Source: Prorocentrum cordatum (taxonomy: Eukaryota). Taken from it: a DNA stretch of 64,000 bases. The notes beneath the pieces were generated by a model. The model saw nothing but the letters and a program-made list of their open reading frames with translations. It did no database searches and was not told the DNA's origin. A program made the translations under genes and the position numbers. Where the stretch lies: assembly GCA_963575745.1 (NCBI GenBank), contig CAUYUJ010000114.1, positions 558,001 through 622,000 of the forward strand, in the 5' to 3' direction. Positions 5,679 through 60,847 of the stretch are shown in pieces (the first letter of the stretch is position 1; the number at the start of each line of letters is the position of its first letter).

Positions 5679-6442
5679 GGCTTCTGCATGTATTTGTCGT
5701 TCAGAATCCGCCTGTAGGGGGACATGCCCGACCTGAGGATAGGCCGAGGGGGGATGCATCGACCCACAATCGCCGATGGGTTGCCGATCGGGGCCCGATG
5801 GCCCACCCTACTCAGGGCCATGCGCTTTCGCTGTCCGGGTGCCGATCCCCGATGCATCGGCGGTGTATCTCAGGAGAGGAAACAAACACACAGACACAAT
5901 TAATCGTCGATTCCTCAGAAAATATGGGAAAATATGGGAAGTGGGGGGGAAGACAGAAACCCAGAACATATAGGAACATATACCCCCTGGGCCAGTCCCC
6001 CCCCCCTAACGTCCGCCCTCAGTCATTGCACAGGATCAGAGGAGCAAGAAGGTATTGCAGTGACACATGTTCCAAGGTTTCCATGCTTGCCTGTCGCTCC
6101 GAATGAGCTCCAGAGACGAGGACCGCTAGATAACAGCCCGAAACTGCTGGAACGTATGTGGAGCCGATCGCATCACGACATCGTTCTCGTCCTGCAGATC
6201 TCGTTATAACTGACGAGACGAAAGTTAGGCCGCGCAGCAGGGAACTTGCCCTCTCCCTCCAGAGCTGAAGTCAGTACATAAGGAGGTGCGCGGGTGGGTT
6301 GGACATGAAGACCCAGTAACGCGGAGGCTTCGTCTTGCACCGTAAGAGGAGATACTGGCCTCGTTTGCCTTTCCGCGGAAACCGCCCTCCCAGACCATAA
6401 TGAGACCCGTCTGGGCCAGCCCGGGTACATCGACCCGCCGAG

Positions 6443-6514: not shown

Positions 6515-7613
6515 GATGGGCGGGTGAATCCCCCCCAGGGGGCGCCAACGTTAAGATATCTGGTCGCGGCGCCGCGGCCACGACATCGTCGGCGCCATGG
6601 GCTCGGAGAATACCCAGCAGAAGGGCCCGAGAAGTTGACACGGGGCAACGTTAATGGGGGGGCTGGGTTCTGGGGGGGACGTATGGGCCCCCAATCGCCC
6701 ATTCATCACCGTTACGGGTATGCGGATATGCTATCCGGCCTGTTGCCAAGATATCGGCGGGGCATCGCCGATTCAGGGTCGATGCTTCCCCCCCTGAGCT
6801 AGTCCATGCCAGTCCCCTCCTGACTCTCCCCCTCAAGAAGTCGCTGAAAACAGGGACAGGTGACAGCTCCAAGGAGAATGCAGCAGGATGCATAGCTGGT
6901 GGAGGAGAAGGTTGGAGGGATGGGGAGGAGCGGAGGAGCAACAGCAGGAGGACCATGAAAGTCTTCTCCTCATCCTCCCTCAATTCTCCATCCATCCTCC
7001 CTCCTCCTCCCACTGGTCGTTCTCCTCCTCTTCTTTCTTCTCCTCTTCCTCCTCCTCCTCCTCCCTTCTACTCCGGACGACTCGCCAGGAGTCTGTGATC
7101 CCTCTCCGACATTCTCAGACAGTAAAGATGTTGGAATGATAAGGATTACTTGGATCACCAGGGGCTCGCTGTTCCTTAGGTCCTTCCCTGGCTGTTCCTC
7201 TAGCGCACTCGTGCACCCAGGCACTTCTGAGCCCCCCAAAAGTGTCGCTACTTGTTTGACGTGATTTGTGACACGAAGTAGCTTGATTATACCCCAATGT
7301 CACTTCCACACTTTTGGATACAGGCCGCTCCGAGGAGAGAAAAGTGGCATGCGCACAGCCTTGCGATGGCGCGCGCGGATGTGTTGGGCCGGCGCAGGGC
7401 CCAGCCCCCTGGCGTCGCCTCCAGCGTCGCCCCTGGCGCGTTCCGCGCGCCGGGGGAGGGGGCCCAGCGCCGACCGGGCTGAGCCCGAAAGTTTCTGGTT
7501 ATGCCATTATTCGCGTTCTTCTATCACCACCTCTTCTTTTAGATTGCATGTTTGTGTAGCATATTCGATCCGCAAACTATGGTCGGTGACAAACCGCTTT
7601 GGACCTCCAAGAG

Positions 7614-7751
7614 GAAGCCACCAAAAAGTGCGAGGAGCTCCGAAAGAACATCAAGAAGGCGCTCCTTGATGCCGATAATATGGTCAAGAATTCCAAGGTC
7701 GCCGAAGAGTCGGCAAAGGCGTCGCTGAAGGACCAGGCCAAGACGGAAAAG
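7614..7751 (+). CDS. SMC4: SMC4 exon 4
   Basis: EATKKCEELRKNIKKALLDADNMVKNSKVAEESAKASLKDQAKTEK, 138 nt, heptad pattern, GA donor. Confidence 0.75.
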
Positions 7752-7784
7752 GACTGCAGCCATGAACATGTTACAGTGGCATGC

Positions 7785-7805
7785 GTAGTATTTGTAGTAG
7801 TACTC

Positions 7806-7837
<32 letters not shown>

Positions 7838-7838
7838 C

Positions 7839-7873
<35 letters not shown>

Positions 7874-7993
7874 AGTGGTAGTAGTAGTAGTAGTAGTAGT
7901 GTAGTAGTGGTAGTGGTAGTGGTAGTTGTAGTGGTAGTGGTAGTGGTAGTGGTAGTGGTAGTGGTAGTGGTAGTGGTAGTGGTAGTGGTAGTC

Positions 7994-8024
<31 letters not shown>

Positions 8025-8041
8025 CAGCTGTAGTAGTAGTC

Positions 8042-8100
<59 letters not shown>

Positions 8101-8240
8101 CGTAGTGGTCGTAGTGGTCGTAGTGGTCGTAGTGGTCGTAGTCGTAGTCGCAGTCGTAGCCGTAGTAATAATGCTACTAACATGAACAGTCAGGGTAGTT
8201 TTCGTCGTAGTCGTAGTCGTAGTCGTAATAGTTGCACTAA

Positions 8241-8284
<44 letters not shown>

Positions 8285-8576
8285 ATTGTCGTAGTCGTAG
8301 TGGTAGTCGTAGTTGAAGTTGTATTCGTAGTAGTAGTAATAGTAGTAGTAGTAGTAGTAGTAGTAGTAGCAGTAAGGTAGTATTAGTAGTAGTAGTAGTA
8401 GCAGTAGTAGCAGTAGTAGTCGTAGTAGTAGTTGTAGTAGTAGTGGTAGTAGTAGTTGTTGTAGTAGTTGTACTAGTAGTCGTAGTCGTAGTAGTAGTAG
8501 TAGTAGTAGTAGTAGTCGTAGTCGTAGTCGTAGTCGTAGTCGTAGTCGTAGCAGTATCAATTGTATTAGTAGTCGT

Positions 8577-8643
<67 letters not shown>

Positions 8644-8644
8644 T

Positions 8645-8679
<35 letters not shown>

Positions 8680-8686
8680 AAAGTAG

Positions 8687-8722
<36 letters not shown>

Positions 8723-8770
8723 CAGTAGTAGTCCTCGTAGTAGTAGTAGTAGTCGTCGTAGTCGTCGTAC

Positions 8771-8821
<51 letters not shown>

Positions 8822-8907
8822 CAGTAGTCGTAGCAGTAGTGGTGGTGGTCGTAGTAGTAGGCATAACAGTAGTAGTAGTAGTAGTGGTAGTAGTAGAAGT
8901 AGGCGTA

Positions 8908-8939
<32 letters not shown>

Positions 8940-8949
8940 CGTAGTAGCG

Positions 8950-8989
<40 letters not shown>

Positions 8990-9141
8990 GAGTGGTAGTG
9001 GTAGGCGTAGTATTCGTAGCAGTAGTAAACATTATAGCAGCAGTAGTAGCAGCAGTTGCAGCGGTAGTAGTAGTAGTAGTAGTAGCAGTAGTAGCAGTAG
9101 TCGTAGTAGTAGTAGTAGTAGTAGTAATAGTAGTAGTAGTC

Positions 9142-9186
<45 letters not shown>

Positions 9187-9392
9187 CTAGTAGTAGTAGT
9201 AAGTAGTAGTAGTAGTAGTAGTAGCCGTGGTAGTCGTCGTAGTAGTAGTAGTAGTAGTAGTAGTAGTAATCGTAGCCGTAGCTCATGTCGTAGTAGTAGT
9301 AGTAGTAGTAGTAGTAGTCGTCGTCGTCGTAATCGTCGTCGCCTTCGTAGTCGTAGTCGTAGTCGTCGTAGTAGTAGTGACAGATAGTAGGT

Positions 9393-9427
<35 letters not shown>

Positions 9428-9569
9428 CGTAGTAGTAGTAGTAGTTGTCGTCGTCGTAGTAGTCGTAGTAGCAGTAGAAGTAGCAGTAGTAGTAGTAGTA
9501 GTAGTAGTAGTTGTCGTAGTAGTAGTAGTAGTAGCAGTAGTAGTAGTAGTAGTCGTATTAGAAGTAGTG

Positions 9570-10360: not shown

Positions 10361-10479
10361 GGAGTCGTAGTTTCGGAAGTAAGGAGGGTCGGTCGAAAAT
10401 GGTTTGACGTGTTAATGCCATTCGCACGTATTTGACCATCTGAGTCGAGCAACATCCGAAGTTGGATTCCGTTCTGGAG

Positions 10480-10629
10480 GAGCTTGCCAGACTGAAGGAG
10501 GAGCACGCGAAACTCGACGACAAGGCGGAGCAGGTGCTCAACACCTACAACGAGATCAAGGAGGAGCTCGTGCAGAAGGACGAGCTGCTGCAGAAGCTCC
10601 GCCAGAAGCGCGAGGAGGTGATCGGCCAG
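10480..10629 (+). CDS. SMC4: SMC4 exon 5
   Basis: ELARLKEEHAKLDDKAEQVLNTYNEIKEELVQKDELLQKLRQKREEVIGQ, 150 nt, GC donor. Confidence 0.75.
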
Positions 10630-11893
10630 GCCAACGCACCGAGCCCCCAACAGCCCTTCCAGCTTTGTCAATTCGATTCGATTTCGATTTCGGGTATGTT
10701 GATTTCGGGTATGTTGATTTCGATTCAATTTCGATTTCGAATTCGGGTATGTTGATTTCGATTTGATTCGGTTTAGCATTCCGACTTCGGTTTGGATTTT
10801 TTGTATGCGCCTCGGCCCGGGTAGGGTTCAGTCGTCCCGCCCGCCCACGCAGCTTCGCATCGCCCGCACGCACGTCACGAGCCTGAAACCGAAATCAATT
10901 TCCCGGTGGGGGCTCCCCGTTATACTTCGATCTCACCTCCGATCCTCCCCATCCGTCCGACCCGATCATGTCGTATGCATGAGCGCCGACTGAGTCTCCT
11001 CTATGGAACTTCGGGGAGGTATGTGGTTTCTTGGAGGCCCATCTCAGAGGAAGACTGCGACGACATTCGCGCGTGAGCTCCCCGCGTAATGTCGTGCGTC
11101 GTGAGCATCCTCGTTTCCAATGTAGCGTTCTACTCCGGCGGCCCGCTTAAGTTATGGCGCAGGGTCGCTATGCCATCTCGCGTAAGGCCCGCTTCTTTCA
11201 GGTGGCTCATGCGGCTGTCTCAAAGGGCCGTCGAGAGGGCCCGGGCGCTCGCGGAAGAAGGTCGGCACACCTCTCGGTGCTGGGTCCAGTTTGCAGCTCT
11301 CTCGCAGGGCCTTGTCTTCGGACTCAAGGCCAAATTCAGAGGGAATCGATCCAGGATTGAGGTGGGAGTTTGCCCAGGGCCGTGCGTGGGGCATGTTCTC
11401 ACCCGAACTTCCTCTGGATTCCGACCCTCTGGATTCTTGCCTCTGCCGCTGGAACCCCTCCGTTTCAGGGCACGGGGGATCCTCAAGAGTTGCATGGACG
11501 GGCGCGCGGGATGGCTGCCTCGTTTAGCGTCATTCGAGTTATCCCCATCCCCGCTGGGAAAGCCTTGGCCCCGCTGCTCGACCAGCCCCCAAGATGGGGA
11601 CAGATGCCGTCTCCGTCGGCTAGCGCAGCATCCACTGCCTCCTCGAGAACTTGGCGGGGCAGGCTGAAGGCGCCAAGGAGCCCCAGCCTACTGGAGATGG
11701 GGATCGATCTGAAGATGCCAGCCGCTTGGTCAGGACCGTCAAGACCTTGTGTTTGCAGAGGCCGCTTATCCCTCCTTGCTCCTCCTCCTCCTCCTCCTCC
11801 TCCTCCTCCCCCTCCTCCTCCTCCTCCTCCTCCTCCTCCTCCTCCTCCTCCTCCTCCTCCTCCTGGGCGCAGCTTATCTCGAGCCTCCCTTTC

Positions 11894-11914
11894 CTGTAGC
11901 CATGTTGGCTCACG
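11894..11914 (+). other. Relict dinoflagellate spliced leader (DinoSL) upstream of EF-hand retrogene
   Basis: ctgtagccatgttggctcacg vs CCGTAGCCATTTTGGCTCAAG, 18/21 identical, 66 nt upstream of ATG 11981. Confidence 0.85.
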
Positions 11915-11980
11915 GTGCAGGCAGCCTGCTCGCGCCACCGGCCTTCCGCGCCCCGCTTGCGGGCAACCGCCACTGCAGCC

Positions 11981-12039
11981 ATGGGCGAAGCGGCCGACGG
12001 CATGCTGGTTGCCATCGCGGAGCTCCTCAAGAAGAAGAG
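11981..12039 (+). CDS. EF-hand (calmodulin/centrin-like) protein, exon 1
   Basis: gccATG; MGEAADGMLVAIAELLKKK(R); joins exon 2 in frame once the MITE-derived GA-AG intron 12040-12240 is removed. Confidence 0.75.
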
Positions 12040-12041
12040 GA

Positions 12042-12237
12042 CCGGGCCGAGCGAAAGGGGGGAATAGGGAAAGGGGGGGGTGCGAAATCTGCTGCATGCG
12101 GCTGGTTTCGGCCCCGCCCCCAGGCCCATTCCTCGATACATGGGCGCCTCCCGGCGCCGGGAGGCGCCGGGAAAAACAGCTGCGTGCGCTGATTCTCAAC
12201 CCCCCCCTTTGCTATCCCCCCCTTTCGCCCGGCCCGA
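12042..12237. mobile_element. MITE family A (introner), TIR TCGGGCCGGGCGAAAGGGGG, 5-bp TSD GAGGA
   Basis: TSD at 12037-12041 and 12238-12242; ~35-bp imperfect TIRs. Confidence 0.9.
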
Positions 12238-12240
12238 GAG

Positions 12241-12955
12241 GATCAGGAGCTCAGACCTCTTCCGGACCACGAGCTCCAGTGGCGACGGCCAGGCGACTGC
12301 CGAAGAGCTCCGCGCCGCGCTCGGAGGCCTCGGGCTGAAGCCCAGGCCAGACCAGTTCTCGGCTCTGGTCGCAATGCTGGACCCGGATTGCAGCGGCAAG
12401 GTCGGATTCAAGGAGTTCGAGAGGGCCTTGAGGCAGGTAGACAAAACGCAGCCGTCGGCACCCGCATCGCGTCCCTCCAAGAGCAAGCTCATGGATAAGG
12501 ACAAGGAGGAGTTCCGGCAAATCTTCTGCCTCTTCAAGCAGCTGTGCCGGACTGGCTCATCTGGGGAACCCGAGCTCGTGGAGTGGGACGAGAGCGGCAA
12601 CATAGCCGCCGACGATCTCGAGCAGTTGTTGGAGACGGTGGGTTTGAAGCTCAGCAGTTCCGAGCTGAACGGCATCATCAAGGACCTCGACAAAAACAAT
12701 GACGGGACCATCGATTTTGAGGAATTCTGCTCCTCGACGACGGAACAGATCCAACTGGATTACAGTCAAGAGGAGATCTCTAGAGCCTTCGCGTCGTTCC
12801 AGAAGAACAGTCCCGACGGCCTGATAAAGGTCAAGGACCTCAGAGAGGCTCTGAAGACACACATGTACCATGAGATGATCGACGCGGAGATCAACGAACT
12901 GATCTTCCAGTACAAGGATTCGTTCGTAAGGCTGCCAGGCTCAGATGAGGAGTAT
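12241..12955 (+). CDS. EF-hand (calmodulin/centrin-like) protein, exon 2
   Basis: EF loops DPDCSGKVGFKE, DESGNIAADD, DKNNDGTIDFEE; long uninterrupted reading frame. Confidence 0.85.
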
Positions 12956-13701
12956 CGAAAGGGTTTTTCGCTCTCTGCCGCCCACACGCTAGGCTGAGCC
13001 ATCTTGGGACTAGATCCGGGCAGTTTCAGGGGCCATCACGGGGCCTCTTGGGCCATGTTAGGGCATCGGGGGGCCATCTCCAGGCTATCCTGGGCAATCT
13101 CGGGGCCATTCTGTTGCCTCGGGGGCCCTGCTTGGAGGGCGTGCTGGGGCCATCTTGTGCCATCCTGTGCGGTTTGGGTGGCATCTTGGGGCCGTTTGGG
13201 CATTTGGGGCCGTCTTGGACAATCTCGGAGCTCTGGGGGCCTTCGTGAAGCGATCTTTGGACATTTTGGGAGCAATTCGTGGGACGGGCAAAGAACAACA
13301 TTGAAGTATAGTTGCTGCTCTCTCGGAAATGTTTTGGAGGCCCTCTTGGGGCATCATGGAGGCATCTTGGGGCCACCATTTTCGGCCGTCTTTGGCTTTT
13401 GAAGCTCTCTTCGCAGCCTCCTGGGGTCGTCTGCGAGGCCTCTTGGACCGTCTTGGCCTGCCGTGCGGTGGCGTCCAAGGGGAATTCTGGGGCAACCTAG
13501 ACAGGCCAGGCATTTGAGGGACCTCCCTGTGGTGACTTGTTGTATGGCCCAGGCTCCCTCAGTAACTCAGTAGACGGCAAAGTGGGGACAGTACTACAGA
13601 GATGACGCATAAAAAAGTGCAACTCAAAGAGCACAAGACAGCGGCCTGGCCGAAGACTCCACAGCCTGGCGCGCCACCGGGGTGGTGTGGGGGCGGCGGA
13701 T

Positions 13702-13761
13702 TTCAATTTCCAGGAGTACATCAACCTGATGGCACCTCTGGGCGGCGCTGGGGCAGACTAG
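13702..13761 (+). CDS. EF-hand protein terminal segment
   Basis: FNFQEYINLMAPLGGAGAD* continues ...SDEEY as the exiting helix of the last EF hand; separated by a ~746-bp repeat insertion. Confidence 0.7.
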   Translation, partial: FNFQEYINLMAPLGGAGAD

Positions 13762-14431
13762 GTCCTCCGCCCCGCCCTCCCAGACGCCGGCACGCGCTGG
13801 GCCCGCCCGGGCACGGAGGAGGCTCGCGCCCCCCGCGCGCGCGGGACGTGCGCCGCTCTGCCAGGCAGCACAGGGGGTCGACCCCTCGAGGCTCAGCCCG
13901 GCCAGGCGGCGCGCGCTGGCCGCTGCTCTCTCTCGAGGAGGCGGCGTGAGCTGGCCGCCCGCGAGCGGCCGCCGTGTCCGTCGAGCGGAGCGGCGTCTCC
14001 TCCGCCTCTCGCCCTGCTCGTCTCCCCGCAGCGCCAAGGCACCAGGATCTGACGTCCTGCACGAACGAGATGGGCACGGAAAGAATGGGTACAATGCTCA
14101 ATAGCAGTTCCTGGTCATTCTGAACAGGACTCGCCGTCCGCGCCGCCGCGGCCCGTGTCCATTTGAGACAGAAGGTCGCCTGCCCAACAGCGGCCGCTGT
14201 TGGCTTGGGACAACATTTGTTGTTGGGCATTGTACCCATTTTTTCCGTACCCATTTCGGGCGTCCAAACTGATGTCTTTCCTGCGCGCCGACCCCACCTC
14301 GCTACTCACAGAGGGCCCGATGGGTTGCGAAGGCTTTGCCAGCCACCCCTGGCATGAGCTCTTGCGCAGGCCTCTTAAAGGGTCTCCGCACCATACCCCG
14401 TGGGCCGTCTGCATTTCTGGCGGACCTCCTC

Positions 14432-14628
14432 TCGGGACGGGCGAAAGGGGGGGATTGGGAAAGGGGGGGTTACGAAATCTGCTGCATGCAGCTGGTTTCG
14501 GCCCCGCCGCTGGGCCCATTCCTCGATACATAGTCGCCTCCGGCGCCGAGAGGCGCCGGGAAAATCAGTTACGTGAGCTGATTCTCACCCCCCCCCCCTT
14601 TGCTATCCCCCCCTTTCGCCCAGCCCGA
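14432..14628. mobile_element. MITE family A copy, TSD TCCTC
   Basis: Same TIRs and core; TSD at 14427-14431 and 14629-14633. Confidence 0.9.
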
Positions 14629-15324
14629 TCCTCTGCTTCCGCCGCCTCATCCCCTCTTCGTCTCCGAGGGGAAGCAAGATCCGCAGGAGCAGTACCTTGC
14701 GGAGGCCCGCGTGGAATAGCTAGGATCGACGCTCGCCCCCCTCCCTGGCGAGCGAGAGGCGCGCCCGAGGCCGCGCTGGAGGCGCCGCAAGAGGGTTCCA
14801 GGGCCGACCGGGCAAGTCCGCGCGGACATTTCAATGTTTCTGTCGATGAAGACTCTCTTAATGTTGCTCGCATCTCTGGATTTGTCTTCTTACTCTTCTC
14901 CTCCTCCTCCTCCTCCACCTCGTATCCCTGAATTGGTCTTCTTGTTCTTCTCCTCCTCCTCCTCCTCCTGCTCCTCCTCCTCCTCCTCCTCCTCCGCTTC
15001 CTCCTCCTCCTCCTCCGCTTCCTCCTCCTCCTCCTCCTCCTCCTCCGCCTCCTTCTCCTCCTACTCCTCCCCCTCCGCCTCGCCACCCCCCTTCCCCCCG
15101 TCCCCCTCCCGCCCTCCTGGTCGCCCCGCCCGCTCGCCGGGGCGGGGCCGCTCCCGCGCGGCCCCGGTCCCGCGGCCCCGCCCGCTACTGCGGCGCCGCG
15201 GGGGCCCGGCGCCTCTGCGCGGTCGCCGCCTGCACCGGGAGGGGGTCGGGGGCAGGTCCGCTGCACCGCCCATGCAGGGGCTCCCAAACTGTTCAGTGAC
15301 CGCACCGTGTGGTGAGCCCCAGTG

Positions 15325-15495
15325 TCGGGCGGGACGAAAGTGGGGGATTGGGAAAGGGGGGGGTTACGAAATCTGTTGCATGCAGCTGGTTTCGGCCCCG
15401 CCGCCGGGCCCATTCCTCGATCCATGGGCGCCTCCCGGCGCCGGAAGGCGCCGGGAGAATCAGCTACGTGAGCTGATTCTCAACCCCCCTTTTGC
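15325..15495. mobile_element. MITE family A copy, right end truncated
   Basis: Left TIR and core match; runs into a family E repeat. Confidence 0.75.
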
Positions 15496-18179
15496 AGGAG
15501 GGGAAAAAACACAGACACCATGAGTCGTCGACTCCGGGGAAAATATGGGAAAATAGGGGAAGTGGGGAGGGGAAGACAAAAAACCAGAAACTATCGGGAC
15601 ATATGGGAAAATATAAGAAGATATGGGAAAATATGGGAGCATGTCTGGAGGGATGAGAAAACGACGCTACCCTGGGTTACATATGCGTGGTCTGTAGACC
15701 TCCTGAGAACCCCCAAAGCCTAGAGCCGCCAGGACGCGGCACATCACGCAGGGTTTGGCCTGTCGGCTCACAGGAGTTTCAGCGCACAGCGCCCTGTAAA
15801 CCAGAGTAGGGGCGATGTCCGCTACACAGCCGTGACAAAAGGTTCTTCACTTTGCTATGATGAGGATCTCTCCCGTCTCTGGCAAGATTCCCAACACGAT
15901 ATGATGCTTGGGTCATTCGGCGGAGTAGTTTCCGATCCCGGAGACGTGGGTAACTCTGTTACCCCAAAACGGGATCAGAAGCTACTCCGCGCCAAACCAT
16001 ACAACTTATCGAGCGGGATGCGATTGCGCGCGGAGTAGTTTTAGTAAAACTACTCCGAACTACTCCGCACGAGCGCGTCATTCCAAAAGGCAAATTGAAA
16101 AAAACTTTCGTCACGGAGATGCATATTCAGGCCAGCCACACCAGGGGGAGCTGTGGTCCTTACCCCTGGGGGACCCATCGATTTCGACACCCCTCTCGAG
16201 AGTTCGTCGAAGCGATGGGTTCCCCCAGGGGGGTAAGGACCACAGCTCCCCCAGTTATGGCTGGTCGGATATTCTTCACGCTCCGCGCATCTCTAGGCCT
16301 CCCAGGTGGGGTCCGAGTAGGTGGGGGCCGATGCAGCGCCGATGCAGCGCCGATGCGGCTCGATGTGCCGCCCGGTGTGCTTCACGTCGACGTCGCCGAT
16401 ACATCGGCGACGTCGACGATGCATCGCCATTGCATCGCCGATACATCGCCGATACATTGCCGATGCATCGACGATGCGGCGCGATCCTCCGACCCCATCT
16501 ACTCCGACCCCATCTAAGAAGCCGCTAATATCCCCACCAGCCCATCCAGAAACGCTGCCGATAAGAGCTGACCTTCTTGAGACCCTCCCGGGGTCCTCTT
16601 GGGGCTCTCCCAGCGCCCTCTTGCGGCGCACTGGAGGCTCGTTTGGAGGGTGCTGGCGCCTTGCGCACTTCGTTGGGGCCTCCTGGGAGCCCTGGAGGGC
16701 CTGTTGGGGCCATCCTTTCCGAGGCGGGAATTTATACAGGACCACCGCCTGGAGGGTCAGTTTTCGGAGCCTCGGCAGGCGGTGGATATGGACAGATTCG
16801 GGCCCCCAAGGGCCGAAATGTATCCATATCCATCGCCCGTTAGGGCACTAGGACGTCGGTTCCCAGGCGGTGGATATGGATAAAGCCCCGGCTCGCATCC
16901 TTGAGGCCCCGGGGGGGGTCTTTCATCTACGTTCCCCTCCAGAGCCTCCGCTCGGTCTCCGCCTGCGCTCAGAGGAAGAAAGTCGGGGCCAGGAGCACGT
17001 CCAGACACAATTAATCGTCGACTCCCTGGAAAATTTTGGGAAATATGGAAAGTGGGGGGAAGACAATAACCCAGAAAATATAAGAATATATGGGGAATCC
17101 TGTTATTTGTGTGTATTTATTTGTGTGTCCCAGGGCCTCTTCAATAGTGTGTGATGTTTGCCCACCACTTTGTGGCAAATGGCGGCCCAGACATACCTAA
17201 TTTGTTCCAACACCTTTCGCCCGGAAGACCAGCTGGAAACTCGTGCATTATAGTTGCGTTATCTTGTGGCGCTCCTACGAAGCCCCATGAGACAGGGCCC
17301 AGATACCTTAGTGTGTATACGGCCGGCCTTCAAAAACACACCATGTAAACTTACATGCTCTGAGGTCCGAGCGGTTTTGTTGGATCTGTGCCTGGGACCC
17401 CCTGGCGCCGCCTCTGGCGCCGCCCCTGACGCGTCCCGCGCGCCAGGGGAGGGGGATCCAGCGCCGATACAAGAAATCTTCGCGGATCTCCGACAGTTTA
17501 TATTTGTGCCGTTTCTTCTTCCTCGATGCACACCCAGACGTCCACCGTCTTGACAAGGGTTGATGTCGGAGGAGGAAAAGTGTACCGCTAGCGCGGCTTT
17601 TGCATCGTTTTCGCCTCTCTGGGCCTCCTGGGAGGCCCTGGTCGCCATGGCTGGATTCGCACCGAGATTTCTGGTCAGAGCGCACCCCTGGAGGGGCCCT
17701 CGGGTGCAACGTCAAGGGGGGATACAGTCGGCCCAGATTAGTAGGTCGACCCTGCACGATCAAGGGTACCCTTGTGTCCTGTGTCTCGCGACCCACGCTT
17801 CCTACCTTCCTGTGGCAATGTGGCCCTCGGAAGGGTCTTGTGTCCTCTCGCGTGTCCTGCCCAGTCGAGTCCGACTGCAGGCTCAGGGAGGGATGCATGG
17901 ACCCCCAATCGCCCACTCATCGCCGGCAGGGGCTCGACAGCCCACTCCGCCCGGGAGTGTGCGGATTCCATGTCGGGGGCCTCCTGCCGTCGGAATTTCA
18001 ATTCTGTTTTGCAGTATGCGCATCACACAAGAGATCGGCCGGCCAGCAATTGTTTACGCGTCGCGGGTCCCCAACAGCCCATTCAGGCGCCCTGCCCATG
18101 AGAGCGGACGGGAAAAGGGACGCAGAGACACAGGAGGTTATCTTCGAGCACCGAAGGCATTTTGCAGCTACGGCGCTGT

Positions 18180-19770
18180 ATTGGGGGACATCGGAGTCTT
18201 CTTGGAGCTCTTGTAAGGCATCTTGGGGCCCTCTTGGGGCTTTTCAGTGGGTCTTGGGGTCCTCTTGTGGCGCACTGATAGGGCTCTCTAGGGGCTGAAC
18301 TGGGGCCCTTTTGGGAGCTATGGAACGCATCGGTCAAAGGAAGTGGGGGTCCTCGATTTCCCTTCCCCTTCCAGGCAGGCCCATCGAAATGGCCTCTTGG
18401 GGCGTTTGGGGGGCCCTCTTGGGGCCATCTTGGGCGTTATTGGGGCAGTCGTGGGGGCCTCTTGGGCCCTTGTTGGAGCTCTCTTGGGCCAACTCAAGGC
18501 CATCTTGGGGCTTTAAAAAACGCATCGGAAACGAAAAGGCGAAAAGGCACAAGCCAGTGTTTTTCTTTAGGTGTTTGAATGATGTTGGCTTTTCAGGGAG
18601 GTCCTGAGGGGTCGCCAAAGCACCTGGAACCATCTTGTGGCCCTCTTGGGGCCTCTTGGAGGCATGTTGCTAGCTATATTGAGCCATGCTGGGCTATCTT
18701 GAGCGCTCTTGGAGGCCATCTTGGGCCCTCTGAGGCCCTCTTGGAGCCATTTTGGGCCATCTTGGACGCTCCAACCCCTCGCGAAGCCCCCGTCCAGGTC
18801 CAGTGGAAGGGGTAGGGGAATGGGTCAAGCGACCCACCCGCCCGCAAACCATCTAGCTCACTCCCACCCGCCCTCCCAACACATAAGTAACAGCCGAGCC
18901 TGAAACATGTTATGCAGTCGTCTTTGGATGGACACCTATTGTGAAGCAAAACCGACCCTATGTGCGCGACGCTTGGGCGAGGTAGGTGTGCCACGCTTGC
19001 CAGGCCCGCCACGCGCGCCGTGCACCCCTGGGGCCCGAGCGTGACAGGCACGCGTGGTGCGCCAGATGCGCCACGTGCTCCGCGTGCGCCAGGTGTGCCG
19101 CACATTCCAGCCGCGCCAGGTGCGCCACGTTCGGGGCACGTGCGGAAGGTATCAGGTGCGCCTGCGCACGTGACAGCGCACCTCGGGAAACATGTCGGCC
19201 CACCATCCTTGTCGAAAACAAATGCCTATCATTTTGTGTGGTGGGCCTGCGCACAGCAGGCCAAACGCCACCACCCCCGCTTTCCTTGTCACAAAACCAT
19301 TTACGTGACGGTGATCGCAGGGTGGCCGCGCATGGTCCTGATTTAGCCGCGAGGTGCATTTTGTATTTTGTTGTGTCAGGGATGGCAGTCCTGCGCGCAG
19401 CAGGCAATATGCTGACACCCCCGCCGCCCCTGTCAAAAACAATACACAGTGCCCGCGGGCCTCACAAACATGATTCAAGACTTTGCCCCTAGTGTTTTTG
19501 ACAGGGATGGTGGTGGGGGGGGGCGCATCGGCTTGGCCGCGCATGTTCCAGATGTGGAAGCAGAAATCGTTGCGCAGTATTTTCTGACACGGGTGGTGGT
19601 GAGGGGTCCGCATGGTGTCCTTATGGTTCCTGGTTGGCTGCCGGTCGCCTGGGGGAGGGGGTGTATAATAATAGGGAACAGTGATAAGCCCCCGAAATGG
19701 AAGAAGGGGTGGTGGAAGGGGAAAGAAAGACATCGTTAGACCACTTGTCGCCCAGAGGGCTGGTGGGATT
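18180..19770 (+). repeat. Long dispersed repeat family L (also ~51450-53001, ~53040-54062, remnants at 1-420 and ending 1417)
   Basis: GGGCCATCTTGG-rich 5' part; shared CTCACTCCCACCCG motif; fixed end GCCCAGAGGGCTGGTGGGATT. Confidence 0.7.
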
Positions 19771-22285
19771 GCCCCATGAAGATGTCTTATCCCTTCGATG
19801 ACCCTGGGAAACGCCGATGCCCTTGGGCACCACAGGAAACTGATCGATCAACGACAAATATGCCCCTAAATCTCTTATAGCAAGATGTCCTACAGTCAGG
19901 ACGTTCAAGTAAGGACCACTTGGGGCTCAGGAGGGACTCTGGTTTTCTGGCCACTCCTCAGATCGAAGTCGGGGAATCTATTCGTGGCCAAGCCACGCAG
20001 TGGTCAGAAAAGCCCCTTAGCCGATAAAACAGCATAAGTGGCACTCCCGTTGGTCTGGGTGTAGCCGTCCCCAATAATATTTCGAATTGGTCCTGCACCG
20101 TCCCCCACGACAAGCTGAATCCATCACATGTCGTTGTGCCCTGGCGGTGTCAACATAATCTCGGAAAAACATTTGCTGCTACAATTTGTGACCAGGGTGT
20201 TCGTGTTCCGCGAGCTGACATGCGTTGCTGATTAATTGACTTGTGGTTGCAGGATGCTCGTGTACAGTGCCGGCCTCCTTCAACCCGAAACCATACATCC
20301 ATCTCTTCGGTAGTGCATTCTGAGCGCGGTCATCTTCAGCAGCGATGGGCGCGGATTGTGTGGTCCACCCTGGAGGTGTGACCATAGTTTCTTGCGATCT
20401 CTGTCGAAGCCGATCGAAGTCGAACTTTGCCATGCCGTTTGCCACCTGGGTGTCCCCAGAGAGCTCCAGGAAGCCCCCCCCTGAGGATACGTAGATCCCG
20501 TCTCGGGTCCTTCGTATGTCAACCCGCCTGCCCCGTCCAGGCAATCTCGTTCATGTGCTTAGCCCGAGGGTTCGCATCATCGCATCAATTCCTGTGCTGG
20601 ATCTTGTCGTCGCGTTCGCAACAATACTTCCCGGAATGTACCGTGAGAGATTATGTCAGGGAAGCGGAGACGGGGTAACAGTAGACGGGGTAACAGGAGA
20701 TGGCTGGTTCGAGGTCCAGTGCAGATTTGTTTAGGCTTCTGCGTTCAATGCAGCACCTGTTACATGTTCTCTGCGTTGAATATTTTCGCCTGCTGCACTG
20801 GATATTTTTGCTTTGGACTATTTGTTACCCGGTCTGTATGGTTTGTTTGCAGTGCTTCCGCAACTAGTTGCAGAACAAATGCAGTGTTGTTTTTTTCGCG
20901 TCGCAGGAAATGACAGTGCAGTGCTGTTACTGTTTCTCCATCTTGATCTTATGGTGGGTCTGTTACCACGTTTAGGTGTTACTCGGTTTTGCTTCCCCTG
21001 ATTCTGAGTGATTTGACGGACGACGACGACGATGACGACGACAACCATAATTTGAAGATTGTTCGCTCGTATCAGCTCGCGTGCCATACAATACGTATGT
21101 CAAACCCTCGATACCCGCCCCGTTCGTCTTCCATCGAACCCCTTTGGGGGTCTATCTTTCTTTCCTGCAACGTGTATTTCGTGCAGCCCCGAAGGCAGGG
21201 GGGGAGAGGACGGATGGAAGGAAGGGACACGGGGAAGGGAGGAGGATGGAGCAAGAGGAAAAATATCAGGAGGGGAGCTGGGAGCAGAAAACATGTGGCA
21301 GAGCCAGACGGGCAGATCGGGCGGGTAGACCCTGACTGGCGGATCGGGAAGGCGGGCCCAGGCGGCCAGGTCGAGCAGGCGTGTTGCTGAAGCGTGCGTC
21401 CTGCATGATTCGCGAGGAAGTCTCGAGCGACCGCGCGATTCCCAAGTATATCGTGAGGGAATCCTCAGCGAGAGCGTGATTCCTGAGTGTCGAGGGCGCG
21501 GCGATGGAATAAATTGTGAGGAAGTCCCACGCGGGAGTGCGATTTCTGCATAATTTGTGAGGAAGTCCCGCGCAAGAACGCGATTTGGGAACATATTGTG
21601 GGGATGCAGCAGGTGGGAGCCGCTGTTTTTGCAAACCAGGGACCAAAGACACCATTCTGAGACCCAAAACTTGCCCTGATATTGCACCAGAGAAAAGCCC
21701 CAATCAGAGGATGGTTTGAAATATATGGACGGTGAGTCTGAAAATGGGAGCGATAGTAAGGACGATAGTAAGGTCTATCGTGAGACCGATCGTGAAGTCG
21801 ATTCAGTGAGATCGATGGTGAGATCGCTCGTGCGATCTAGAATGGGATCGATTATGATTTCACTAGTGAGGTGGTTCGTGAGATCGATGGTGAGACCGAT
21901 CGATAAGGAGATCGACCAAGAACCCGGGAACCTGGAATCTCGGGAACCCCGCCGCCCACCGAAATCGGTCCGGCAATAGCAACCGGGAACCCGGGAACCG
22001 GGTCGCCTTAACCCGGCTTTTTCCGCCAAATCTCCGCTGGGGGACCATTTCATATTAATTGGGAAAAAAACAGGGTGCAAGCTTTGGGAAGGGCCTTTCA
22101 TTTGAAAAAACACGATGTGCCCCGGAGGGGGGATCAACAATAATTGTTTTCAGTAGTGAGAGTCCAACAACATCGACCATGCACGCCCAAAAACACGACG
22201 CAACGACGACCACAACGGCGACGACGACGTCGACGACGGCGGCGGCGGCGGGGACGACGACAGCACCAGAGGGTCTGCGCCGCAG

Positions 22286-22375
22286 GCGAACGCCCTGAAG
22301 GAGCAGGAGGTCGACCTCGTCCACGAGATGGAGCAGAAGACGCGAACGCTGAGGGACCTGCAGTCCAAGATCAAG
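22286..22375 (+). CDS. SMC4: SMC4 exon 6
   Basis: CAG|GCG acceptor; ANALKEQEVDLVHEMEQKTRTLRDLQSKIK, 90 nt, GC donor. Confidence 0.75.
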
Positions 22376-22539
22376 GCCCCCCAGGGGGGAAGGACGAGAA
22401 TCAGAGGAGGGCCCATCGAAGCGTCGGTCGGCGGTCCACCTTTCCCTTGAGTTCAGACTCATCTCTCCTTCCAATTGTCGCTTTCCACCTTGTCCTCCTC
22501 CTCCTCCCCCTTCTCCTCCTCCTCCTCCCCCTTCTCCTC

Positions 22540-22570
<31 letters not shown>

Positions 22571-23192: not shown

Positions 23193-24713
23193 TTCGCCGC
23201 CGCCGTCGGTCGTGGGCTCGGCCGCGTCGCGGGGTCTTCCGCCGTCGTCTCTCCGGGTCCCTCTGCCGCCTTTGCTCCTCCTCGCTCTCCCCAGCCCCCT
23301 CTCCCCCCGTCTTCCAGGCCGCCCCCACCGCAGAGGGGGTCAAGCTGCTCCGTCGTGCCCTTCTCGGCGCGCGCCTCCGCGCGCCTCCTCGTGCCGCTGA
23401 TGCATCTCCCCGCTCACCGATGCTCACCTTTTTTGGCTTTTGTCAGTTGCGGTTGTTGCCAAATAGGGTGTTTGGCCTGCCGTGCCCTCTTCGCTGTCGG
23501 AGGTGGCGCGGCGCTCCTGCCGGCCCGGGCGGCGCCCCCCTCCGCGGTGGATCGTTCATTTCGGGTCGACCCCACCGCGGGGGGGATGAGCCTCGTCCGC
23601 ATGCTCGCCTGGCGGTCGCGGCCGGATGGCACCTCCTTTTTACCTCGCGGGGCGTCACGACCGAGACGTCTGCGCGTACGCTGCAACTCGCGCTATTGCC
23701 CGCGCTGGTCGGTTTACGGTTGGCACGAAGTCTGCTGCTGCGCTGGTACCCTACCAAACAATTCGGTCGGCGTTTTTGCAGCTTGTTGGGCCATCCCAGG
23801 CTTTGGTCGCTCCTTGGTGGCGCGGCTACCCACCAAGGATTTTACGGCAGAGCTTCATTAGATTAGTTTGGGCCCCGCATGTACATGCTTCCACGTGTGC
23901 CGTGCGTCTCGGGTCTATTATTCAATATTGTTTTTTTGATTTCGGGGTTGTGTCAGGTCATCGTGCGTCTTTGGTCCGTAGGTTGTACCTTACCAGCTGT
24001 TTCGCAGGGCCTTTGTGCACGGCGCTGTGCCCCACCTGTCTGCTGGTCGGGCAGCAGTCAAGAGGTTCTTTTGCGCTCTGGTGCCCAACGCCGTCGGGTC
24101 GGTGAACTAGCCGAAGGAGGTCTACCCGCCGAGTTGATGGACGTTCGGCGCGCCGCCTGCGCCGCGCAGGCTCGCGTCGCCAGGCTGGAGAATCGGAGGC
24201 GCCGGGGCCTTGGAGCAGATGCGCGGGCTTCGGCGCCGCGCTCCTTGCAAAAAGTGATTGGGAACGCTGTCCATAGAACAGGGCTAGGATCGGGATAAAT
24301 CGCTCCAGAGCGTTCCGGAGCGCTCTCAGAGCGTTCCGGAACGCTCTGGAGCGGCCGCGGCGCCCAATACATCCTCCAAACCCGCCGATTCTCAGAGATT
24401 TCGAGTTATCCCGATCCGATTTTGTCCCGATCTCCGTGTCGTTTTAGTCCACGCAAGCAGGGCTGGCGCTTGGCTGCTTTCTCTGGCCGCCCTGGCAGCT
24501 GCAGAGCACCAGGCCCTGCAGGCTGAGCGCTCGACGCCTGGCGGCCGCTCCCTGGCGGCCCCCCCCCCCGGCCGCTGGCGTCTTCGCGATCTTCTGCGAG
24601 GGGTGGCGAGCCTCGGCGGGCTCCGCCCTCCGGCGATGCCGCCGTGCTCGAGGGGCGCCCTCGCCGGCGCGCTCGCCGACGAGTGGAGCGACGGTCGATC
24701 GAGGTACCGCCTG

Positions 24714-24908
24714 TCGGGCCGGGCGAAAGGGGGGGATTGGGAAAAGGGGGGTAACGAAATTTGCTGCATGCAGCTGGTTTCGGCCTCACCGAGGGGCCCA
24801 TTCCTCGATACATGGCCGCCTCCAGCGCCGGGAGGCGCCGGGAAAGTCAGCTGCGTGAGCTGATTCTCAAACCCCCCCTTTGCTATCCCCCCCTTTCGCC
24901 CGACCCGA
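24714..24908. mobile_element. MITE family A copy, TSD GCCTG
   Basis: TSD at 24709-24713 and 24909-24913. Confidence 0.9.
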
Positions 24909-25308
24909 GCCTGGCCGACGGGCGGGGCGATTCATCGCCAGCGCCGCCGCCGGGAGGAGCTTGCTTCCGCCGCGGGCGATGGCCGCGGGGATCCGGGCGG
25001 CCTTCCACGCGCGGCCGACGTGCCGTCGGCCCCGGACAGCGGGCGCGCGCATGCTCAACTGCGGAGCGGGTCGCGATTCCGTCGAGCACTGCGCCCCCTG
25101 CCGAGTTTATCATCGCGACCTCAGCGCGCGTCTACTCCGCGCTCACCGGCCAGCTTCGGCAGCGGTGCTCTCTGCATTTCTCGGGTTGCGTGGCGAGGTT
25201 CCCCAGCAGGCCGCCTTGAGATCGCCGGCGCGGCGCGCGCTGCACCGCGCGGCGAACGGCTTACGGCGCGGATCCTTTGGCCCGTCAGATGCGGAGAATG
25301 CCTTCGTT

Positions 25309-32644: not shown

Positions 32645-32722
32645 GCGTGGGGCGAGAAGTTGGTGCAGTTCCGGCAGGAGTACGAGCAGCTCCCTCTCGA
32701 CCTCCTCAGCGAGCTGCGCGAG
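32645..32722 (+). CDS. SMC4: SMC4 exon 7 (3' end may be 32734)
   Basis: AWGEKLVQFRQEYEQLPLDLLSELRE; carries the W-x-EKL motif expected in SMC4. Confidence 0.7.
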
Positions 32723-33715
32723 GAGAGAGAGCAGGAGCACTGCGGAGCTCCTCATCTCGTCCCTCTTCTTGTATGTGTTTGGTAGTGTTCGTGAATGTTT
32801 ACTCATCTCCCTCCTTCCTCTCCTCCTCTACAGTTTGCTGCCCATCTTGCATGGAATCGTGCTCCTCCTCGCGCGGGAAAGCCCCCGCGAGGGGCGCGGA
32901 TTTCTCTTGCCCTTGGACGGGTGTGGTTCTTCACGTACGTGTTTCTGTCCGCCCTTCTCTCTTGGTAGTGGCTCTCCTCCTCCTCCTCCTCCTCCTCCTC
33001 CTCCTCCTCCTCCTCCTCCTCCTCTACTGTGGGCACGTGCAGTCAGAAATCGGCCTGCTAGCAGGTGCCCCGTGGAAGAGTCTCATCCCATGATGGCCTT
33101 TGGGGGCCCGCGGATCTTCTGCGGCAGCCTGGGGCCTCCAGCTGATCGACGAAGGATGTGCCCCGAACTTTCCTCTGGCAAGATTTCTCATCGTATGTGT
33201 CTCATGTACTTTCTCCTCCTCCTCCTCCTCATCCTCCTCCCCTTCCTCCTCCTCCATGTCCTTTCCAGCAGTTCGTATCTTCAGAGCTTCTTAGAGCCTC
33301 TCCTCCTCCTCTCTGTTTTTGTCGTGGGGTGGGCCCTCCTCCTCCTCCTCCTCCTCCTCCTCTTCTCCTTCTCCTCCTCCTCCTCCGTCTCTTCCCCCTC
33401 CTGTTCCTCGTCCTCTCGCCGTGACGCGAGCGAGTCAAGAGGAAACCAGATGCCGGAGATGTTCTACCTGCAAGTCGGGCGTGTCCCTCTACAGAAGGAC
33501 AAGAATAGTGAAAAAATAGTCTGTGGACGTTTTTTTGTATTTTATAACAATTTGTGAGCAGTTTTTGAGTATTTATTTCGCCCAAAATACCTCTGTAGGG
33601 GGACAGGCCCGACCTAATTCTACCGTCCTCGGGACGCTTGGGGTGGTGCCAACGGGGCCCCGCCAACACGGGGTCATCCCTACTGCGTGTACGGTGGTTT
33701 CGACTAGGTTCCACT

Positions 33716-44298: not shown

Positions 44299-44494
44299 TC
44301 GGGCCGGACGAAAGGAGGGGGATCCGGAAAGGGAGGGCTACGACATTTGCTGCATGCGGCTGGTTTCGGCCCCACCGAGGGGCCCATTCCTCGATGCATA
44401 GCCGCCTCCGGCGCCGGGAGGCGCCAGGAAAATCAGCTACGTGAGCTGATTCTCAAACCCCCCCTTTGCTATCACCCCCTTTCGCCCAGCCCGA
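44299..44494. mobile_element. MITE family A copy, TSD not intact
   Basis: Both TIRs and core present; flanks TATGA / CCTGA. Confidence 0.8.
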
Positions 44495-60601: not shown

Positions 60602-60604
60602 GCC

Positions 60605-60816: not shown

Positions 60817-60822
60817 CAAAAG

Positions 60823-60844: not shown

Positions 60845-60847
60845 GAC

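What the first reader, a model, noticed from the sequence alone, without database searches (positions are those of the whole stretch)
12037..12242. Introner caught in the act: a MITE family A 5-bp TSD supplies both splice sites
Seen: the 196-bp TIR element sits in the EF-hand CDS between two GAGGA copies. Splicing GAG|GA...GAG|GA (201-nt GA-AG intron, 12040-12240) restores KKKRIRSS exactly, while the unspliced frame hits TAG at 12065. All four intact TSDs of this family contain xAGGx on one strand (GAGGA; TCCTC = GAGGA; GCCTG = CAGGC; AAGGA). Known: introners occur in algae and dinoflagellates, and dinoflagellates use GA and GC donors. Inference: a target preference for NAGGN makes insertions spliceable by default, linking transposase specificity to the non-canonical donor code.
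Basis: partly seen in the sequence, partly recalled or inferred. Interest (0 to 1): 0.8.

Follow-up and report, generated by a model that had tools for sequence, protein, structure and literature searches.

The report
Transposon-made intron in a dinoflagellate gene
A 196-base miniature transposon sits inside the coding sequence of a dinoflagellate calcium-binding gene and is missing, to the base, from the gene's messenger RNA, so it behaves as an intron made by a transposon, a kind of event already described in dinoflagellates.

Summary
A 196-bp element with terminal inverted repeats (12042-12237) lies between two GAGGA copies in an EF-hand coding sequence. Removing 201 nt restores KKKRIRSS. 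The unspliced frame stops at TAG 12065-12067.

New evidence: RNA contigs in 4 of 4 runs laid skip exactly these 201 nt. The spliced protein is colinear with dinoflagellate homologues. So "transposon-made intron" is supported.

The gene is a spliced-leader trans-spliced retrogene. It is nested in an 11.7-kb GC-AG intron of a host gene, and both host introns checked can be placed as AG|GC...AG|GC. GAG|GA...GAG|GA fits that pattern.

- "Caught in the act" is not supported: copies are only 86-90% alike.
- Only 3 of 4 full copies have intact duplications (GAGGA, TCCTC, GCCTG). AAGGA was not found for this family.
- Three other insertions in the same contigs are also skipped. Two have ends that fit G[TCA]..AG on neither strand. 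The third, a sibling copy, fits only on the minus strand.

Whether the duplication's AGG is what allows removal therefore stays open. A 5-nt NAGGH duplication supplying both splice sites is already published for Polarella. Verdict: new member of a known kind.

The parts
12037..12041 (+). left copy of the 5-bp target-site duplication GAGGA
12042..12237 (+). family-A miniature inverted-repeat transposon, copy 1 (196 bp), inside the EF-hand coding sequence. Its last 45 nt are 80% pyrimidine.
12238..12242 (+). right copy of the duplication GAGGA
12040..12240 (+). 201-nt stretch skipped in RNA, written here as a GA..AG intron followed by G. This is one of 7 equivalent placements (starts 12036-12042).
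11892..11914 (+). relic of the dinoflagellate spliced leader (about 20 of 22 positions plus one extra base). The AG at 11898-11899 is the trans-splice acceptor now in use.
   Evidence: (10 loose letters before 11898 in X2); leader sequence read in PMC6050394
11981..12039 (+). EF-hand coding sequence, part 1 (MGEAADGMLVAIAELLKKKR)
12241..12953 (+). EF-hand coding sequence, part 2 (Pfam EF-hand_7, E = 8.4e-22)
12954..13699 (+). 746-nt stretch skipped in RNA in 4 of 4 runs. It is flanked by a 2-nt repeat AT. Possible ends are AT..GG, TC..GA or CG..AT, and none fits G[TCA]..AG.
13700..13761 (+). EF-hand coding sequence, part 3, including the stop at 13759-13761 (FNFQEYINLMAPLGGAGAD*)
14058..14266 (+). 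family-B element with 49-nt inverted arms. RNA skips 14059-14262 in X1 (GC..CG) or 14059-14267 in X15 (GC..AA).
14427..14633 (+). family-A copy 2 (14432-14628) with its two TCCTC duplications. RNA skips 202 nt in X1 and X15. GA..AG is possible only on the minus strand.
15325..15494 (+). family-A copy truncated at its 3' end, with no duplication
24709..24913 (+). family-A copy 3 (24714-24908) with duplication GCCTG. It lies in non-coding sequence inside host intron 2.
44299..44494 (+). family-A copy 4, with unequal flanks TATGA / CCTGA, in non-coding sequence
10444..10626 (+). open frame holding a host-gene exon that ends at 10626. Its last 30 nt equal the loose letters that precede 22283 in all four runs.
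22283..22377 (+). host-gene exon (depth 302 in X1). The introns on both sides can be placed as AG|GC..AG|GC.
32647..32740 (+). next host-gene exon; its start equals the loose letters that follow 22377. The end coordinate is approximate.

Best explanation
A non-autonomous cut-and-paste transposon of about 196 bp inserted into the coding sequence of an EF-hand gene of a dinoflagellate. It has terminal inverted repeats beginning TCGGGCCG and makes a 5-bp target duplication. The gene is itself a retrogene, made from a spliced-leader-capped mRNA.

The element plus one duplication copy (201 nt) is removed from the transcript. The mRNA therefore encodes the intact 277-residue protein.

The most likely route is ordinary dinoflagellate spliceosomal splicing. 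The two GAGGA copies give exon-GAG|GA...GAG|GA-exon, which is the lineage's AG|GH...AG|GH pattern. The element's C/T-rich arm puts a pyrimidine tract directly upstream of the 3' AG in either orientation.

Shown: the element, its duplication, its copies, its absence from RNA, and the restored conserved protein. Inferred: that the spliceosome does the removal, that the cut lies at GAG|GA, and that the transposase prefers NAGGN targets.
For: RNA evidence:
- The joint 12035->12237 skips 201 nt, with 6 letters fitting on either side. It appears in 4 of 4 runs laid, from four studies. Two are on record as polyA RNA; for two the kind is not on record.
- The listed contig pieces show 0 other letters.
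- In X1, depth in the bin holding the element equals the exon part alone: 20.6 observed against 60.2 x 137/401.
- An X2 contig carries the last letters of the spliced leader in front of 11898, so these are mature + strand mRNAs. The leader sequence was read in PMC6050394.

Protein evidence:
- The spliced protein aligns end to end with 15 of the 85 homologues found. I aligned only those 15.
- P0001 and P0002 carry LLKKKRIRSSDLFRT across the insertion site.

Splice-site context:
- At placement k=4 the intron is GA..AG, preceded and followed by G.
- Both host-gene introns checked can be placed as CAG|GC..CAG|GC and AAG|GC..CAG|GC.
- The terminal 45 nt of all four copies are 76-82% pyrimidine on either strand.

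Retrogene status means the gene was most likely born without introns (relic leader). Song et al. note that unspliced pre-mRNAs can also be retroposed.

Published precedent: 5-nt NAGGH and 4-nt AGGH duplications that supply both splice sites, and the AG|GH...AG|GH consensus.
Against: - All evidence comes from assembled contigs. No DNA run of the same strain was laid, so absence of the joined form in DNA is not shown.
- GA..AG is one of 7 placements that fit equally.
- The 746-nt insertion in the same gene is skipped in 4 of 4 runs at ends that cannot be G[TCA]..AG.
- The family-B element is skipped at GC..CG in X1 and GC..AA in X15.
- Copy 2 of the same family is skipped in 2 of 4 runs, yet has no G[TCA]..AG placement on the + strand.
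- So something in this locus removes insertions without those dinucleotides, and it could be what removes copy 1 too.
- The strand of the transcript across copy 2 is unknown. Contigs are unstranded, and there is no coding signal on either strand.
Confidence: 0.55

Rival explanations
1. Removal is at the RNA level but does not depend on splice dinucleotides. The long terminal hairpin, the flanking direct repeat, or both define what is cut out, as proposed for the introner elements of Amoebophrya. The AGG in the duplication is then only a target preference of the transposase.
For: - In three of three inverted-repeat insertions with RNA evidence, the skipped stretch ends within about 4 nt of the base of the terminal stem. 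These are copy 1, copy 2 and family B.
- Copy 2 is skipped although TCCTC faces the + strand.
- Family B and the 746-nt insertion are skipped at ends that are non-canonical on both strands.
- Farhat et al. (PMC7789003, sections 10, 11 and 16 read) describe the same anatomy. They report 8-20 nt inverted repeats, 3-5 nt direct repeats over the boundaries, and no dinucleotide signature.
Against: - Both host introns checked here can be placed as AG|GC..AG|GC, and they are 10-12 kb long. That is unlike the compact Amoebophrya genomes.
- The 746-nt insertion has only a weak, offset inverted repeat: 14 nt, 86%, with its left arm about 20 nt inside the boundary. A hairpin rule does not explain it well.
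- If the transcript over copy 2 is on the minus strand, both skipped family-A copies read GAG|GA..GAG|GA. That would favour the spliceosomal reading.
Confidence: 0.2
2. The joints are made in the test tube. Reverse transcriptase jumps across the base of very stable hairpins, helped by the flanking direct repeats, so the real mRNA keeps the element.
For: - The element folds at -136 kcal/mol and is flanked by 5-6 nt of identical sequence.
- The family-B skip differs between two runs (204 against 209 nt) and has no shared letters at the joint. Imprecise jumping could produce that.
Against: - The skipped form is the only one assembled in 4 of 4 runs from four studies. Depth is up to 60, with no cover inside the element in X1.
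- The 746-nt skip is identical in 4 of 4 runs. It has only 2 shared letters and no strong terminal hairpin.
- The coding sequence downstream of the insertion is intact over 277 codons and conserved. That is not expected if the mRNA were always truncated at TAG 12065.
Confidence: 0.1
3. The mRNA comes from another copy, allele or strain of the gene that never had the insertions or lost them. The window's copy would then be an interrupted pseudogene.
For: - Dinoflagellate genes are often multi-copy.
- The RNA contigs break at the same place (12787-12814) in three runs, with a drop in depth. That could mark two variants.
- A skip of element plus one duplication is exactly what an empty site looks like.
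- The two different family-B joints resemble excision footprints.
Against: - The listed contig pieces match the window with 0 other letters over about 1.6 kb of exons and untranslated sequence, including the mutated relic leader.
- Four insertions from three families would have to arrive without a single substitution.
- No second EF-hand copy exists in the window.
Confidence: 0.08

Closest known systems
Introner-like elements of Polarella glacialis, class 12 (5-nt duplication NAGGH or NNAGG) and class 14 (AGGH). Roy et al., preprint 10.1101/2020.10.14.339549, later Curr Biol 2023.
   Same: Both are inverted-repeat DNA elements in a dinoflagellate whose target duplication supplies both splice sites. 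The 5-nt duplication here has AGG at its centre, the donor would be GA, and a G follows the acceptor (passages read).
   Different: The sequence family differs (ends TCGGGCCG...CGGCCCGA), and the species was not identified. Only 5 copies could be examined, and only one lies in a coding sequence. A sibling copy is removed although its AGG faces the other strand of the window. No sequence comparison with the published families was possible.
Introner elements of Amoebophrya sp. A25/A120 (Farhat et al. 2021, PMC7789003)
   Same: Both are introns that are repeated elements with inverted repeats at both ends and 3-5 nt direct repeats over the exon/intron boundaries. Neighbouring introns have no GT-AG-like ends.
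   Different: The published inverted-repeat motifs start with TTA or TAT, not TCGGG. Those genomes are compact with short introns, whereas this window holds 10-12 kb GC-AG introns.
Identically repeated intron boundaries of dinoflagellates (Mendez et al. 2015, PMC5032977)
   Same: A 2-9 bp repeat containing AGG stands at both ends of the intron and once in the mRNA. That is the pattern of GAGGA here and of CAGGC / AGGC at the host introns.
   Different: That paper describes the pattern without linking it to a transposon. Here the repeat is visibly the target duplication of a multi-copy element.
Inverted-repeat introner elements counted in Prorocentrum cordatum introns (Dougan et al. 2023, PMC10666404)
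   Same: A high-GC dinoflagellate genome (59.7% reported; the window is 58.0%) with long introns that are enriched in inverted-repeat and direct-repeat elements.
   Different: That survey looked only inside gene models built with GT/GC/GA donors. Whether the window comes from that species was not tested.

Membership tests
Miniature inverted-repeat transposable element (non-autonomous DNA transposon) | short, with terminal inverted repeats | tested here: met
   196 bp; 44-nt arms 84% complementary; arm matches of 25-36 of 44 across the four copies
Miniature inverted-repeat transposable element (non-autonomous DNA transposon) | target-site duplication of fixed length | tested here: met
   Perfect 5-bp duplication in 3 of 4 full-length copies; the fourth matches at 3 of 5
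Miniature inverted-repeat transposable element (non-autonomous DNA transposon) | multiple dispersed copies, no coding capacity | tested here: met
   4 full copies, 1 truncated copy and 2 fragments in 64 kb. At 196 bp the element is too short to encode a transposase.
Miniature inverted-repeat transposable element (non-autonomous DNA transposon) | autonomous partner with the same ends | not testable with these tools
   No whole genome is held. No transposase domain was found in the 24 open frames scanned, which were chosen from the window's longest frames and coding-like exons. No further end-motif matches in the window.
Introner / introner-like element | one element copy makes up the whole intron and is absent from mRNA | tested here: met
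   201-nt skip in 4 of 4 runs; 202-nt skip of copy 2 in 2 of 4 runs. Based on contigs only, with no DNA control.
Introner / introner-like element | the insertion lies at a position that is uninterrupted coding sequence in relatives | tested here: met
   LLKKKRIRSSDLFRT is continuous in P0001 and P0002 and conserved in the 15 homologues aligned. These are transcripts or proteins, so the intron state of the relatives' genomes is unknown.
Introner / introner-like element | splice sites G[TCA]..AG recruited from the duplication or the element | tested here: inconclusive
   Possible for copy 1 (k=4). For copy 2 it is possible only on the minus strand, and the transcript's strand is not known.
Introner / introner-like element | many intron-forming copies across genes of the genome | not testable with these tools
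   No genome. The metagenome scan with a 15-mer gave only chance hits: 2 weak partial matches among 119 loci. Viral and prokaryote collections gave 0 hits.
Amoebophrya-type introner element | 8-20 nt inverted repeats at intron ends and 3-5 nt direct repeats over the boundaries | tested here: met
Amoebophrya-type introner element | a genome in which most introns lack canonical ends | tested here: inconclusive
   6 introns were seen. The 2 host introns can be placed as GC-AG. Of the 4 in the EF-hand contigs, 1 fits GA-AG, 1 fits only on the minus strand, and 2 fit on neither strand.
Dinoflagellate retrogene | relic spliced leader directly upstream of the gene | tested here: met
   11892-11914 matches the 22-nt leader (PMC6050394) at about 20 positions plus one extra base. 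The mRNA carries a fresh leader joined at the AG inside the relic.

The most novel reading that the evidence does not exclude
In a large-genome dinoflagellate whose ordinary introns follow AG|GH...AG|G, transposon insertions in a young retrogene are removed from the mRNA exactly at their duplication or hairpin boundaries, whatever the dinucleotides there. The cases are a 746-nt insertion bounded by AT, a family-B hairpin cut at GC..CG or GC..AA, and a family-A copy with TCCTC on the sense strand. That would place Amoebophrya-style non-canonical introner removal outside the parasitic Syndiniales, alongside normal splicing in the same cell. It would point to a second, structure-guided or repeat-guided way of clearing transposons from transcripts.
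Probability: 0.2. Interest if true: 0.75.

Novelty: new member of a known kind. Interest (0 to 1): 0.4.

Why it matters
This is a clean single-locus example of intron gain by a transposon. The host is a retrogene and so was most likely born without introns, the interrupted codons are conserved in relatives, and the mRNA lacks the element to the base.

It adds a sequence family with a 5-bp AGG-centred duplication to the dinoflagellate introners already described. It does not change the picture.

What could matter more is the company it keeps. Two neighbouring insertions are removed at ends that no known dinoflagellate splice rule explains. If these are real RNA events, gene annotation pipelines that allow only GT/GC/GA donors miss such introns. 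The way dinoflagellates tolerate transposons in genes would then need another look.

Tried and rejected
- Whole genome for a duplication logo: none is held.
- Metagenome scan with the invariant 15-mer: 119 loci, but only 2 weak partial matches to the element, so these are chance hits.
- A more specific 21-mer in the viral and prokaryote collections: 0 hits each.
- Earlier notes of this scan: nothing by place, sequence or words.
- Names of the closest homologues through cluster members: the query could not be made.
- Amoebophrya as the source organism: considered because of the non-canonical ends and the 58% GC. Judged unlikely after finding two 10-12 kb introns that can be placed as GC-AG, one with a nested gene. 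The source species remains unidentified.
- Coding signal around copies 2, 3 and 4, to fix the strand of their host transcripts: none on either strand.
- Transposase domains in 24 open frames chosen from the window's longest frames and coding-like exons: none, only a globin domain.
- A window-wide survey of hairpin elements with flanking repeats (38 candidates): no AGG pattern in the other families, so the pattern is specific to family A.
- Parts of the window without RNA cover (for example 11000-11801 and 15411-16212) are not used as evidence of silence.

Full report
**1. What is in the sequence**

GAGGA stands at 12037-12041 and again at 12238-12242. Between the two lies a 196-bp element (12042-12237). 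Its 44-nt ends are inverted repeats, 84% complementary. As RNA the whole element folds into one long hairpin. The energy is -136 kcal/mol, z = -6.9, and 0 of 200 shuffles fold as well.

The terminal 20-mer occurs 9 times in the window at up to 3 mismatches, against 0.01 expected. BLAST and a profile search give these copies:
- four full-length copies: 12042-12237, 14432-14628, 24714-24908, 44299-44494
- one 3'-truncated copy: 15325-15494
- two fragments: 4700-4826 and 46694-46755

All are in the same orientation. The full copies are 86-90% identical to each other.

The flanks are GAGGA/GAGGA, TCCTC/TCCTC, GCCTG/GCCTG and TATGA/CCTGA. So three of the four full copies have a perfect 5-bp duplication, not four. 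It follows the right end of an unrelated hairpin element at 34332-34494, whose left flank is AATTC.

**2. The gene**

The frame from ATG 11981 runs into TAG at 12065-12067. Taking out 201 nt gives MGEAADGMLVAIAELLKKKRIRSSDLF.... The downstream part carries EF-hand domains (PF13499, E = 8.4e-22).

A search of the large protein collection found 85 relatives. The closest are 79% identical. The named ones are dinoflagellate sequences: an Alexandrium-labelled MMETSP transcriptome entry, Zooxanthella nutricula and Polarella glacialis.

I aligned 15 of the 85 with the spliced product. They are colinear over the whole length. P0001 and P0002 read LLKKKRIRSSDLFRT across the insertion point. The C-terminus SDEEYFNFQEYINLMAPLGG is matched only if a second stretch of 746 nt (12954-13699) is also removed.

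**3. RNA**

One search for runs listed 20 holders, all with 0.50-0.66 of the sampled words. The exons make up about 0.6 of the stretch.

Contigs of four runs from four studies were laid on 11000-23000. X1 and X8 are on record as polyA RNA. For X2 and X15 the kind is not on record, but their cover follows the exons.

Result for the finding: the joint 12035->12237 skips 201 nt, with 6 letters fitting on either side. It appears in 4 of 4 runs, and the listed contig pieces show no other differing letters. In X1 the depth in the bin that holds the element is exactly what the exon part alone gives.

Other joints in the same contigs:

| Joint | Length skipped | Runs |
|---|---|---|
| 12953->13700 | 746 nt | 4 of 4 |
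| 14058->14263 | 204 nt | X1 only |
| 14058->14268 | 209 nt | X15 only |
| 14426->14629 | 202 nt | X1 and X15 |

The 202-nt skip is the second family-A copy plus one duplication. In X2 no listed contig bridges it, and X8 has next to no cover there.

**4. Context found along the way**

An X2 contig has ten loose letters in front of 11898. Together with the AG at 11898-11899 they form the 3' end of the dinoflagellate spliced leader. I read the leader sequence in PMC6050394.

The genome itself carries a mutated, nearly full-length copy of that leader at 11892-11914. This is the mark of a retrogene, a gene copied back from a leader-capped mRNA. Such a copy is most likely born without introns. Song et al. 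note that intron-bearing retrogenes also occur.

The loose letters on either side of a highly covered 95-nt exon (22283-22377) are identical to window sequence. One side ends at 10626 and the other starts at 32647. So the whole EF-hand gene lies inside an 11.66-kb intron of a + strand host gene. The next host intron is 10.3 kb.

Both host introns can be placed as CAG|GC...CAG|GC and AAG|GC...CAG|GC. This is the AG|GH...AG|GH pattern with identically repeated boundaries described for dinoflagellates (PMC5032977, passages; preprint 10.1101/2020.10.14.339549, section 7).

These long GC-AG introns argue against a compact Amoebophrya genome. I had first suspected one. The species was not identified.

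**5. How the element is removed**

The joint can be placed in 7 equivalent ways. One of them (12040-12240) is GA..AG, preceded and followed by G. It reads GAG|GA...GAG|GA, exactly the lineage's pattern.

The element's last 45 nt are 76-82% pyrimidine on either strand in all four copies. A pyrimidine tract therefore sits just before the AG in either orientation.

This is the mechanism published for Polarella classes 12 and 14, where a 5-nt NAGGH or 4-nt AGGH duplication supplies both splice sites (passages). I take it as the most likely reading for this copy (0.55).

**6. What speaks against a simple story**

- The 746-nt stretch sits in conserved coding sequence on the + strand. It can only be AT..GG, TC..GA or CG..AT.
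- The family-B hairpin element (49-nt arms) is cut at GC..CG in one run and GC..AA in another.
- The second family-A copy has no G[TCA]..AG placement on the + strand. On the minus strand it would again be GAG|GA...GAG|GA.
- The contigs are unstranded, and the sequence around that copy shows no coding signal on either strand. I could not tell which strand is transcribed there.
- The depth figures suggest that the part beyond about 13900 is a separate or alternative transcript. It is about 10 against 40-60 in X1 and X15, and 10 against 14 in X2 (my arithmetic).

At least two insertions in this locus are therefore removed without the usual dinucleotides.

**7. Rivals**

- A boundary-independent removal guided by hairpin or repeat, as proposed for Amoebophrya (PMC7789003, sections 10, 11 and 16): 0.2.
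- Reverse-transcriptase jumping across hairpins: 0.1. It is weakened by the uniform result in four libraries and by the 746-nt case.
- An insertion-free second copy or allele as the source of the mRNA: 0.08. It is weakened by 0 differing letters over about 1.6 kb, including the mutated relic leader, and by the need for four insertions without one substitution. No second copy is in the window.

The DNA-level rival is therefore argued against, not excluded.

**8. Target preference**

All 3 perfect duplications have AGG or CCT at the centre. Such pentamers make up 0.044 of the window, so 3 of 3 is about 8e-5. The count is post hoc and on three cases.

Copy 3 lies inside a host intron with its AGG on the other strand, and copies 2-4 lie in non-coding sequence. 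The pattern therefore looks like a property of the transposase rather than of survival by splicing.

A window-wide survey of 38 hairpin candidates showed no such pattern in other families.

**9. Age**

"Caught in the act" is not supported. Copies differ by 10-14%. This copy's arms match at 36 of 44 positions, and its first base has changed from T to C. The duplication is perfect, which sets no tight limit.

**10. Verdict**

This is a real, RNA-supported transposon-made intron in a dinoflagellate retrogene. It is a new sequence family of a known kind. Its mechanism most likely matches one already published. It has an unexplained neighbourhood of non-canonical removals that deserves a follow-up with DNA reads and with stranded or direct RNA reads.

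Supplements of the cited papers, such as lists of published introner families, were not opened. They could show whether this family is already catalogued.

Noticed in passing
window 10444-32740 (+): The EF-hand gene is nested in the same orientation inside an 11.66-kb intron (about 10627-22282) of a highly covered coiled-coil-like host gene. The next host intron is 10.3 kb. Both can be placed as AG|GC..AG|GC, with repeated boundaries CAGGC and AGGC.
   Followed up: partly
window 11892-11914: A mutated, nearly full-length relic of the dinoflagellate spliced leader. The AG inside it is the trans-splice acceptor now in use, which marks the EF-hand gene as a retrogene.
   Followed up: partly
window 12954-13699: A 746-nt insertion in conserved coding sequence, bounded by a 2-nt repeat AT. 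It is skipped in RNA contigs of 4 of 4 runs at ends that fit no known dinoflagellate splice rule. Part of it resembles sequence at 18639-18763.
   Followed up: partly
window 14058-14266 and 34332-34494: A second hairpin family (B) with 49-nt arms. The copy at 14058 is skipped in RNA at 14059-14262 in one run and 14059-14267 in another, with no shared letters at the joint and no clear target duplication.
   Followed up: partly
window 11775-11862 and 14884-15112: Long (CCT)n tracts on the + strand. The first lies about 35 nt upstream of the spliced-leader acceptor of the EF-hand gene. The second follows the last laid exon.
   Followed up: no
window 59034-60941 (+): A 636-residue open frame with coding-like base composition and a globin domain (PF00042, E = 8e-09).
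   Followed up: no
window 16132-16264 and 62956-63098; 5408-5732; 58583-58725; 38413-38603; 49378-49653: Further hairpin-type short elements. One family has two copies (CCAGCCACA...TGGCTGG). One element has a 7-bp flanking repeat CCCACTT. Two are long near-perfect palindromes.
   Followed up: no
window 7580-9557 (-): About 2 kb of simple repeat that reads as runs of tyrosine codons on the minus strand.
   Followed up: no
window 12787-12814: RNA contigs of three runs break at the same 28-nt overlap, with a drop in depth after it. This could mark a second transcript variant or paralogue that shares the 5' part.
   Followed up: no
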